Assembly: GCF_000002075.1 (NCBI RefSeq)
Contig: NW_004797282.1
Span: 292,590 to 356,204, forward strand
DNA length: 63,615 nt
Direction: 5' to 3'
Source: Aplysia californica
Lineage: Eukaryota
The position numbers and the translations under genes were made by a program. The first letter of the stretch is position 1. Every line of letters starts with the position of its first letter. Positions 52,523 through 55,500 of this stretch are shown here, piece after piece. The notes beneath the pieces are model-generated. The model saw only the letters and a list, made by a program, of their open reading frames with translations. It was not told the origin of the DNA and made no database searches.

Positions 52523-55500
52523 TGCATGCGCGTATATGTGTGCATGTGCGTGTATGTGTGTTTTGTATGGTGGTTGGTTGGCGGAGGCTTGGTTGTGGTT
52601 TGCTCCTTCTTTTGCTCCTTTTCTGCAACCTTTTTGTGATTTTTCTCTTTAACGAAAACTCAAACTCCTTCACCAGAAAATACGGCAAGGTGACTCCCCG
52701 CGAGAAACTCCTCAGTGTGAAGAAGGCGGATGAGCAGCTGAGGAAGAGGACGTCTGCGGAGAGGGAGGAGCTGAAACAGTGGATGACGGAGAAGTTCCAT
52801 CAGAGGCACGAGGAGTACAGGAAGAGGAGGACGGAGATGATAGAGAGAGAGCCCAAGCCTTTTAAGTCTCAGGCGGTGGTAAGGACTTGTTATGCTTGTG
52901 TGTGTCAAAGTTTCAGGCGGTGTAAGGTTTTGTCGTAATGGTGTTTCTGTTTTAAGGAGAAAGAAGAGATGGGGAGGAGAAAAAAGAACAATTATAATAG
53001 TGAGAAAGTACACGTCTTTCAAGTATCAACCAGTGGTAAGGACTTGTCGTGTTTGTATGTCAGAGGCTCAGGAGGTGGTAAGGAATCGATCGTTATATGT
53101 ATGTCAGGATAGGAGAGACAGAAGAGGAGAAGAAGGAGAAAAAAGGAGAATTAAAGTACTTAGAAAGTACAAGCCTTTCAAGTCTCAGGGGGTGGTAAAA
53201 AATCATTATATGTATGTCAGTTTCAAGGAAAAAGAAGAGGAGGAGGATGAGAAAAAAAGGAGAATTTAAGTGCTGAGGAAGTACAAGCCTTTCAAGTCTC
53301 AGGAGGTTGTAAGGAATCATATTTATGTCAGCATGACAAGGAAAGTAAACAGGGTAAAAGATCTAGAGAAAGACCTCGTGGAACCTGGAGAAGAGTAACG
53401 GAAATGGATGTACAAAAAAATGGGAAGACATGGATGAGTGACATCAAGCGACTAGCCCAGGATAGGGAAAGGTGGAAAGTGTTTGTTCGTGGCCTATATC
53501 CTGATTCAGGGTGAGAAAGGCTATAATGATGATGATGAGGTTAGTGGAGAAAGAAGAAGAGGAGGAGGGGGAGAAAAAAAGGAGAATTTAAGTACTGAGG
53601 AAGTACAAGCCTTTCAAGTCTTAGGAGGCTGTAAGAAATCCTTATATGTATGTCAGGTTAGTGGAGAAAGAAGAGGTGGAGGAGAAAAAGAAGAATGAAC
53701 ATACTTAACGTGTCTTGGGGGCTGGTAAAGAATCATTGCAAGTTTGTCAGATTAGCAGAGAGAGAAGAAAAGGAGAGGGAAAAGAAGAATGAAAGAGATG
53801 AGAATGATTAGATAGTGTCTGCATTGTATTCTTCTACTGCAGATGCTCATTTACTCTTCGTCTATGATTCACTCAGTCATTCTTTCATTTTCTTATATTT
53901 GATTGATTTTTTATTTTGTTTTGTGTATAGTCTAATCATTTGTTTGTCTATTTATTTGTTATTTGTTGTATTCTCTTTTAATCCTTCATTGACATGATAA
54001 GTCTTGTTAGATTGTTAAAAAGTGTAGCTTGCATTTTTTGCTCTAGGATATTTGGGATTATTGGTCCTCCTACAAGGCGGATCTGTAGGTTATTTTGTTG
54101 GTCTTACTTTTGGCTCGTCCATTTTGTGTGTGTTTCTGGTGTCTTACTTGGACATACAATATTATGTTCTTCTCACACACCTGTCAATGAGCGAATAGCT
54201 TGTATTGATGATGGTATGAGTCAATTTTATACCTGAAAAAGAGGATGATAAGAATAATNNNNNNNNNNNNNNNNNNNNNNNNNNNNNNNNNNNNNNNNNN
54301 NNNNNNNNNNNNNNNNNNNNNNNNNNNNNNNNNNNNNNNNNNNNNNNNNNNNNNNNNNNNNNNNNNNNNNNNNNNNNNNNNNNNNNNNNNNNNNNNNNNN
54401 NNNNNNNNNNNNNNNNNNNNNNNNNNNNNNNNNNNNNNNNNNNNNNNNNNNNCATGAGTGAGTGCAAGCATACTATGTGTGTGTGTGCACATTTGTGTGT
54501 GTATGTGTGTGTATGTGTATGTGTGTACTCGGTGAACGCCAAACCAGTGTGCCAAGATCTGGACAATAAAGATGTATTTTATCTTATCTTATCTTAAATC
54601 TCTTTGTGTCTTTTTCTCTCTCAGGTGTATAAGCTGAACCTGAAGTGTCTTGTGTCTTTTCCTCTCTCAGATGTATTAGCTGAACCTGAAGTCTCTTGTG
54701 TCTTTTCCTCTCTTAGGTGTCTTTTCCTCTTTCAGATGTATTAGCTAAACCTGAAGTCTCTTGTGTCTTTTCCTCTCTCAGGTGTCTTTTCCTCTCAGGT
54801 GTCTTTTCCTCTCTCAGGTGTCTAAGCAGAACCTGAAGTGTCTTGTGTCTTTTTCTCTCTCAGGTGTCTTTTCCTCTCTCAGGTGTCTAAGCTGAACCTA
54901 AAGTGTCTTGTTTCTTTTTCTCTCTGGTGTATAAGCTGAGCCTGAAGTCTGTTGTGTCTTTTCCTCTCTCAGGTGTCTACACTGAACCTAAAGAACATGG
55001 AAGAGGAGATCCACCAGCGGCGGAAGGACATGATGTCTGAGTTCATGGACCAGCGGCTGATGGAGGCTGAGCACCTCATGGGCGACATCCTGGTGGACAA
55101 ACCCGCGCTGCCATGGGATGGAGGCGAGATGTACTCAGCTCGCTCGCCGTCCAGGTCACCAAGACGTGCAGAACACTCGCCCAAAGTGAGGAAGACTTCA
55201 CCTTCTCGTGCTGGAAGGGGCCGGAGCCCAAGATCGCCCACCAGGAAGCCGATAAGCCCCAGTACCTGGTCGCGGAAACCATCGTCTCTTAGCAGATGTA
55301 AGTTGGGCAGAAAGTACTGTTGGAAATGTCTTAAGACGGCCACCCATTGTTGAGGAGTAAAGTGTCTGTCTTAGACAGGTGGACGTCTTACACAAATGAT
55401 CTGCCGTAAGCTGACAAAACGCCTGTTTTTCTTCTCAGCAGTTTCGAGAAAAAGAGTTTTTTTGTCAGTGTAACCATTTAAAAATAAAGTGATTTTGAAA

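What the first reader, a model, noticed from the sequence alone, without database searches (positions are those of the whole stretch)
54600..54993. Nine decoy acceptors, seven of them AG|GT, before exon 43; nearest competitor has lost its AG
Tract+AG units lie at 54623, 54669, 54715, 54734, 54780, 54797, 54816, 54862 and 54881, with the real AG at 54971. Long units copy the exon start (gtgtctaagctgaacctaaag vs exon gtgtctacactgaacctaaag). AG|GT is the configuration of both recursive splice sites and the AGGT tandem-duplication model of intron gain. The unit just upstream of the real site (~54921) reads tctctggtgt with no AG, as expected if the closest decoy were purged. The in-frame 54881 site hits TGA.
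Basis: partly seen in the sequence, partly recalled or inferred. Interest (0 to 1): 0.7.

Follow-up and report, generated by a model that had tools for sequence, protein, structure and literature searches.

The report
Sea-hare splice-acceptor "mirage" minisatellite
In a likely cilia-building gene of a sea hare, the end of an intron is repeated nine extra times with its splice signal intact, yet the assembled transcripts examined all enter the exon at the last copy, so this is likely a tolerated, variable repeat of a kind already described in lancelets rather than a splicing device.

Summary
Bases 54599-54993 form a compound minisatellite of the 3' splice site of a CPLANE1-like gene in Aplysia californica. 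It holds nine intact tract+AG copies (7 AG|GT) and one AG-less copy nearest the exon. All nine score like strong true acceptors; none of 223 other introns had more than three strong decoys. Six of seven runs laid join 52878 to 54973 and to no other AG; the seventh is DNA-like. Every decoy gives a premature stop, so rare use could be hidden.

Recursive splicing and AGGT intron gain are not supported: the GT is inherited from the exon start, and the regenerated donor scores in the lowest 5%. The purge idea stays open. Strong decoys are thin 31-60 nt upstream (4 vs 10.8 expected), but the DNA-like run suggests the AG-less unit varies between haplotypes.

This is a 'mirage' repeat, known from amphioxus; this scan has noted many on other DNA. 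Side result: outside this gene, donor copies outnumber acceptor copies 9 to 0 in 194 introns.

The parts
52677..52878 (+). Upstream coding exon of the CPLANE1-like gene; phase-0 donor follows at 52879
   Evidence: tblastn and junction scoring; contig joints; Pfam Joubert E=7e-4, below cut-off
52854..53760 (+). Degenerate copies of the exon end plus donor (GT at 52922, 53036, 53078, 53195, 53309, 53631, 53725); two score as high as the real donor
53062..54750 (.). Stretch absent from one contig of DNA-like run X8 (depth 22.7, about half the exon's 43.1): likely an insertion/deletion haplotype; ends are not GT..AG
   Evidence: tables 5, 5c; table 7
54599..54993 (+). Compound acceptor minisatellite: 44-46-nt units (about 21 nt exon start + 25 nt intron end) mixed with 17-19-nt tract+AG units
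54623..54882 (+). Nine intact decoy AGs (54623, 54669, 54715, 54734, 54780, 54797, 54816, 54862, 54881), 80th-98th percentile of true acceptors; each would give a premature stop
54883..54926 (+). Unit whose tract lacks CA, so no AG, 46 nt upstream of the real site
   Evidence: also present in two X8 contigs
54927..54972 (+). Last unit, carrying the functional tract and the real AG at 54971-54972
54973..55297 (+). Downstream coding exon, 325 nt, donor at 55298; a purine-rich stretch begins just after the 21 copied bases
   Evidence: Pfam Joubert E=0.004

Best explanation
The stretch is a tandem repeat built from the intron end and exon start of a sea-hare CPLANE1-like gene, the assembled transcripts examined use only the last acceptor, and the extra copies are likely tolerated by-products of repeat slippage or unequal exchange. 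Shown: the unit structure, the used junction, a premature stop behind every decoy, and haplotype differences in one DNA-like run. Inferred origin: the exon begins with the same six letters as the pyrimidine tract 19 nt upstream, which would seed the short unit, and a 46-nt duplication reaching 21 nt into the exon gave the long unit. Inferred choice of site: exon definition favours the AG closest to the downstream donor (55298), because only that AG is followed by the full exon with its purine-rich, enhancer-like bases. Rare use of a decoy would be removed by nonsense-mediated decay.
For: Unit anatomy. Junction 52878-54973 in 6 of 7 runs laid, from six study codes, and no joint or loose end at any decoy. 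Homologous snail and slug proteins are colinear across the junction. Enhancer-like 5-mers (motifs recalled): 0 in the 374-nt array and 0 in the 21 copied bases, 4 in the next 60 nt. X8 differs from the reference at 54736, 54892, 54893 and 54900, has an extra 44-nt donor-side copy, and has a contig lacking 53062-54750. Boundary-spanning copies occur at 13 of 448 boundaries against 4 of 3000 in a cross-intron null. Amphioxus mirages and the human F7 donor VNTR behave alike (PMC3087553, PMC3902484, PMC1557585).
Against: Only assembled contigs were laid. They drop rare forms, and the stops behind every decoy would hide decoy use in steady-state RNA. The runs' RNA status is a guess or unrecorded. 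The array is an extreme outlier in decoy strength (9 vs at most 3). Acceptor copies are rarer than donor copies (0 vs 9 of 194 independent introns) and strong decoys are depleted at 31-60 nt, so 'tolerated' may not mean cost-free. The enhancer and exon-definition step was not tested.
Confidence: 0.82

Rival explanations
1. Selection shaped the array: loss of the AG in the unit nearest the exon was favoured, or allowed the array to persist, because a strong acceptor 46 nt upstream would compete. This is compatible with the mirage origin.
For: The one AG-less tract of ten is the nearest. The lost letters are CA, not a CT slippage unit like the one lost in 54782-54798. Strong decoys 31-60 nt upstream number 4 vs 10.8 expected, P=0.017, at the 25th-percentile threshold. 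Acceptor copies are 0 vs donor copies 9 in 194 independent introns. The AG-less join is also in two X8 contigs.
Against: A single event with a 1-in-10 chance placement. At the stricter threshold the depletion is not significant (1 vs 3.1, P=0.19). The arrays at acceptors 19946 and 32054 keep the AG of their nearest unit, though those decoys are weaker. X8's exon contig begins exactly at 54926; a simulation reproduces this when one haplotype has an intact unit, and not when both lack the AG. Any other base at 54925 would do the same.
Confidence: 0.3
2. The AG|GT copies are recursive (ratchet) splice sites that remove the intron in steps.
For: 7 of 9 copies are AG|GT and all nine are strong acceptors. 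Recursive intermediates are invisible in mRNA (PMC8605326, passages).
Against: Regenerated donors score at the 1st-4th percentile, and 0 of 223 true donors have these +3..+6 letters. The intron is 2.1 kb, whereas ratchet points are described in long introns. The GT is explained by copying. The remaining second steps would be only 90-348 nt. The array differs between haplotypes.
Confidence: 0.04
3. The array is a regulated unproductive-splicing switch that tunes gene dose by sending some transcripts to decay.
For: All nine decoys are strong and all lead to stops well upstream of later exon junctions.
Against: No decoy junction in 6 of 6 spliced contig sets. Unit content varies in X8. Stops are expected of any out-of-register intronic copy.
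Confidence: 0.06
4. The array records or prepares an intron gain by AGGT tandem duplication.
For: The copies contain AG|GT; PMC3087553 proposes mirages as a route to new introns.
Against: The model needs a duplicated coding segment whose GT and AG become the new donor and acceptor (PMC3265369, section 3). Here the donor is unrelated to the acceptor, about 1.7 kb between the two copy sets is unrelated to the exon, only 21 exon bases are copied, and homologs show no insertion.
Confidence: 0.03

Closest known systems
Amphioxus 'mirage' minisatellites: Adh3, globin BflGb6 (acceptor type) and BflGb9, troponin C, PGBD5 (PMC3087553 and PMC3902484, passages read; the original Adh3 paper PMC117041 was not held)
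   Same: Tandem copies spanning an intron/exon boundary; many but not all units keep the splice signal; unit length within the 10-72 bp given for Adh3; haplotype variation; splicing appears unaffected.
   Different: Here in a gastropod; two interleaved unit lengths; nine very strong acceptor copies; both ends of one intron carry copies. My searches (listings only, apart from the two papers above) turned up no paper describing mirages in a mollusc.
Human F7 intron 7 37-bp VNTR (PMC1557585; abstract and passages)
   Same: Polymorphic minisatellite of a splice site; only the exon-adjacent copy is used.
   Different: F7 is a donor array whose pseudo-sites were shown functional by mutation; this is an acceptor array and is untested.
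Drosophila intronic ratchet points / recursive splice sites (PMC8605326; passages)
   Same: Acceptor directly followed by GT.
   Different: No strong donor behind the AG, short intron, repeat origin, and no intermediates seen (contigs could not show them).
AGGT tandem-duplication intron gain (PMC3265369; abstract and section 3)
   Same: Duplicated AG|GT motif.
   Different: The duplication is at an existing acceptor and creates no new donor-acceptor pair.

Membership tests
Mirage minisatellite | Tandem units span an intron/exon boundary | tested here: met
   Long units are 25 nt intron end + 21 nt exon start
Mirage minisatellite | Many but not all units keep the splice dinucleotide | tested here: met
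   9 of 10 upstream tracts keep AG
Mirage minisatellite | mRNA is spliced at the authentic site | tested here: met
   6 of 7 runs laid show 52878-54973 only; the seventh has no spliced contig; contigs only
Mirage minisatellite | Length or sequence varies between haplotypes | tested here: met
   One run, X8: four substitutions in the array and a contig joining 53061 to 54751; unit counts not resolved
Mirage minisatellite | Somatic instability (reported for Adh3) | not testable with these tools
   needs single-molecule reads from one animal
Recursive splice site | Acceptor directly followed by a functional donor | tested here: not met
   Regenerated donor 1st-4th percentile; 0 of 223 true donors with these +3..+6 letters; a score, not a function test
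Recursive splice site | Lies in a long intron | tested here: not met
   2,094 nt; median of 224 resolved introns 842 nt
Recursive splice site | Splicing intermediates or sawtooth pattern in total RNA | not testable with these tools
   only assembled contigs were offered
AGGT duplication intron gain | Donor and acceptor derive from one duplicated AG|GT in coding sequence | tested here: not met
   Donor context at 52879 is unrelated to the acceptor context at 54972
AGGT duplication intron gain | Intron absent from orthologues | not testable with these tools
   no related genomes held
CPLANE1-like host gene | Joubert domain PF15392 in a protein of about 3,200 aa | tested here: met
   Homolog P0004 (3,278 aa, Bulinus) passes the Pfam cut-off and maps exon by exon along the window; the name CPLANE1 for this family is recalled

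The most novel reading that the evidence does not exclude
Duplicating an acceptor is costlier than duplicating a donor in this genome (0 vs 9 in 194 independent introns). This nine-decoy array may persist only because the nearest copy lost its AG, while animals segregate haplotypes with and without that AG and with or without 1.7 kb of the intron. The locus would then be a natural allelic series for how a spliceosome picks the last of ten near-identical acceptors against first-AG scanning.
Probability: 0.2. Interest if true: 0.5.

Novelty: new member of a known kind. Interest (0 to 1): 0.24.

Why it matters
As a single locus it is a tidy gastropod example of a repeat type known from amphioxus and human F7, and this scan has noted it in many other genomes. 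Its use is practical. It is a polymorphic natural test of 3' splice-site choice, and a warning that such arrays can mislead gene prediction. The donor-over-acceptor excess, if it holds genome-wide, would measure selection against decoy acceptors.

Tried and rejected
(1) 'Minisatellites in this genome are anchored at splice sites': 7 of 9 in the host gene (2.4 expected, P=0.002, post hoc), but 7 of 18 in myosin introns (4.6 expected, P=0.10) and 4 of 22 in ABC introns (2.9 expected, P=0.29). A cruder version gave 11 of 41 vs 6.1 (P=0.03), but microsatellites gave a similar excess there. Not claimed.

(2) In the host gene, 4 of 60 boundaries had local copies, while 104 of 972 intronic AG and 131 of 1066 intronic GT positions also did. 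Boundary copies are therefore not more common than local repeats in general.

(3) 'Acceptor-side arrays stop short of the AG' was dropped: arrays at 32054 and 43960 carry AG-bearing units.

(4) The P450 and kinase searches returned mostly single-exon genes and were not used. The first homolog search found nothing.

(5) No run was on record as RNA, and no raw reads were offered.

(6) The array is not a dispersed element: the only other genomic hit is a weak pyrimidine-rich match.

(7) Rows dropped before counts: 2 of 32 window introns and 5 of 199 others, for low junction margin or a skipped exon.

(8) Two papers were not held: PMC117041 and PMC4529404. A search for the duplicated-splice-site experiments of Reed and Maniatis found no usable text. 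PMC1557585 reports that earlier duplication experiments in gamma-globin used the 'proximal' copy and that another study found the opposite, so the literature seen here does not settle the mechanism.

Full report
Setting. The window lies in a 927-Mb genome. An ABC-transporter exon from it matches an Aplysia californica protein at 99%, and that record's contig length equals that of the source contig, so the species is A. californica. The two exons around the finding hit Pfam Joubert PF15392 weakly. A 3,278-aa Bulinus homolog passes the cut-off and maps exon by exon from 8.3 to 63.4 kb. I call the gene CPLANE1-like; the name is recalled.

Observation. The array 54599-54993 resolves into 44-46-nt units (about 21 nt of exon start plus 25 nt of intron end) and 17-19-nt tract+AG units. 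Nine upstream tracts end in AG at the places given; seven are followed by GT. The tenth, 46 nt before the real AG, lacks CA. With a matrix built from 222 true acceptors of this genome, the nine score at the 80th-98th percentile. The other 223 of 224 resolved introns have at most three such sites within 400 nt. Four decoys are in frame, and all nine reach a stop within 39 codons. The donor end of the same intron also carries degenerate copies of exon end plus GT, two as strong as the real donor.

Which site is used. Seven of the 24 listed runs were laid, all as assembled contigs. X1, X6 and X11 show the joint 52878-54973; X14, X15 and X16 show the upstream exon's end as a loose end at 54972. 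These six carry six study codes, and none shows a joint at a decoy. Their RNA status is a guess or unrecorded, and contigs drop rare forms. Since every decoy brings a stop, decay would hide rare use, so the data show dominance of the last AG, not exclusivity. Homologs are colinear across the junction.

Variation. X8 covers the intron and has no spliced contig, so I treat it as DNA. It differs from the reference at four array positions, has one extra 44-nt donor-side copy, and has a contig at about half depth that joins 53061 to 54751 with non-splice ends. One haplotype therefore likely lacks 1.7 kb, leaving an intron made almost only of donor and acceptor copies. Two X8 contigs carry the AG-less join. 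The exon contig, however, starts exactly at 54926. A k=31 simulation gives that start when one haplotype has an intact unit, and 54901 when both lack the AG. Any other base at 54925 would give the same break, and 18 of 26 pieces were not displayed, so this is a hint of polymorphism and not proof.

AG|GT. The real exon starts with GT, as do 62 of 222 true exons here, so the motif is inherited. After a first splice the donor formed at a decoy would score at the 1st-4th percentile of 223 true donors, and none of these has the same +3..+6 letters. Ratchet points are juxtaposed acceptor and functional donor in long introns (PMC8605326, passages); this intron is 2.1 kb. The AGGT gain model needs a duplicated coding segment that supplies both ends of a new intron (PMC3265369, section 3), which is not the case here.

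How common. I resolved 224 introns: 30 in this gene, 67 in myosins and 127 in ABC transporters (7 of 231 dropped). Boundary-spanning copies occur at 2 acceptors and 11 donors, against 4 of 3000 in a cross-intron null. Outside the host gene the count is 0 acceptors to 9 donors in 194 introns. Examples with up to 18 units are shown. The asymmetry is post hoc and small in number, and could partly reflect faster decay of pyrimidine tracts or hidden N stretches. A general anchoring of minisatellites at splice sites, seen in this gene, did not replicate, and boundary copies in this gene are not more frequent than local repeats at other intronic positions.

Purge hypothesis. For: the nearest of ten tracts is the AG-less one, the deletion is not a CT slip, and strong decoys 31-60 nt upstream are 4 against 10.8 expected (P=0.017; not significant at a stricter threshold). 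Against: it is a single event with a 1-in-10 chance, nearest units at acceptors 19946 and 32054 keep their (weaker) AG, and X8 hints at a second allele. I leave it at about 0.3.

Mechanism. Shown: repeat anatomy, used junction, stops, haplotype differences. Inferred: a six-letter identity between tract start and exon start, 19 nt apart, seeds the short unit, and slippage or unequal exchange spreads units into the intron while the exon side is held by selection. The last AG likely wins by exon definition: it gives a 325-nt exon to the donor at 55298, against 415-673 nt for decoys. Purine-rich enhancer-like words (motifs recalled) begin just past the 21 copied bases and are absent from the array. 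This step is untested.

Comparison. [quoted passage not shown] PMC3902484 (passages) adds troponin C and PGBD5. PMC1557585 (abstract, passages) shows the donor counterpart in human F7. The four testable mirage features are met. Searches listed no paper on mirages in molluscs (listings only). Earlier notes of this scan report 80 findings holding these search words in at least 16 genomes, including abalone and octopod acceptor arrays and a donor array in this genome; these are unchecked, and I had reached the mirage reading before reading them. No supplements were read.

Verdict. Real, striking in count, ordinary in kind: a new member of a known repeat class, interest 0.24.

Noticed in passing
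window 19672-19960: Second acceptor mirage in the same gene (47 nt x 6, five AG-bearing copies, weak true acceptor at 19946); the nearest copy keeps its AG.
   Followed up: partly
window 21788-21985 and 27799-27838: Donor copies: a 30-nt unit x 6.6 spanning donor 21799, and three short G-rich copies of donor 27800.
   Followed up: partly
window 16826-17025, 31808-32043, 43435-43949, 61154-61330: Minisatellites ending 9-40 nt before an acceptor; those at 32054 and 43960 carry AG-bearing units without exon sequence.
   Followed up: partly
window 52879-54972 in run X8: A haplotype that seems to lack 53062-54750, so that the intron would be about 0.4 kb and consist almost wholly of donor and acceptor copies.
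   Followed up: partly
L127 8676-9201; L128 2571-2687; L119-L120 (G000:C129 about 980596-980844); L082 (G000:C57): Donor mirages in myosin genes: 30 nt x 18, 22 nt x 5, 114 nt x 2, and a roughly 31-nt array whose unit also holds a CAG|GT.
   Followed up: partly
194 myosin and ABC introns: Donor-spanning copies 9, acceptor-spanning copies 0; possibly selection against decoy acceptors.
   Followed up: partly
G000:C54, C220, C2371, C981, C916, C90; many P450 and kinase loci: Several ABC-transporter genes with single open frames of 1,100-1,500 aa or more, and many single-exon P450 and kinase genes, beside intron-rich paralogues; possibly retroposed expansions.
   Followed up: no
window 56782-58111: Broken LINE-type reverse transcriptase remnant (PF00078, E=6e-13) in a downstream intron, sense strand.
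   Followed up: no
window 53436-53535 and 54540-54596: Very high-copy repeat fragments inside the intron (contig depth far above single-copy level in all four runs).
   Followed up: no
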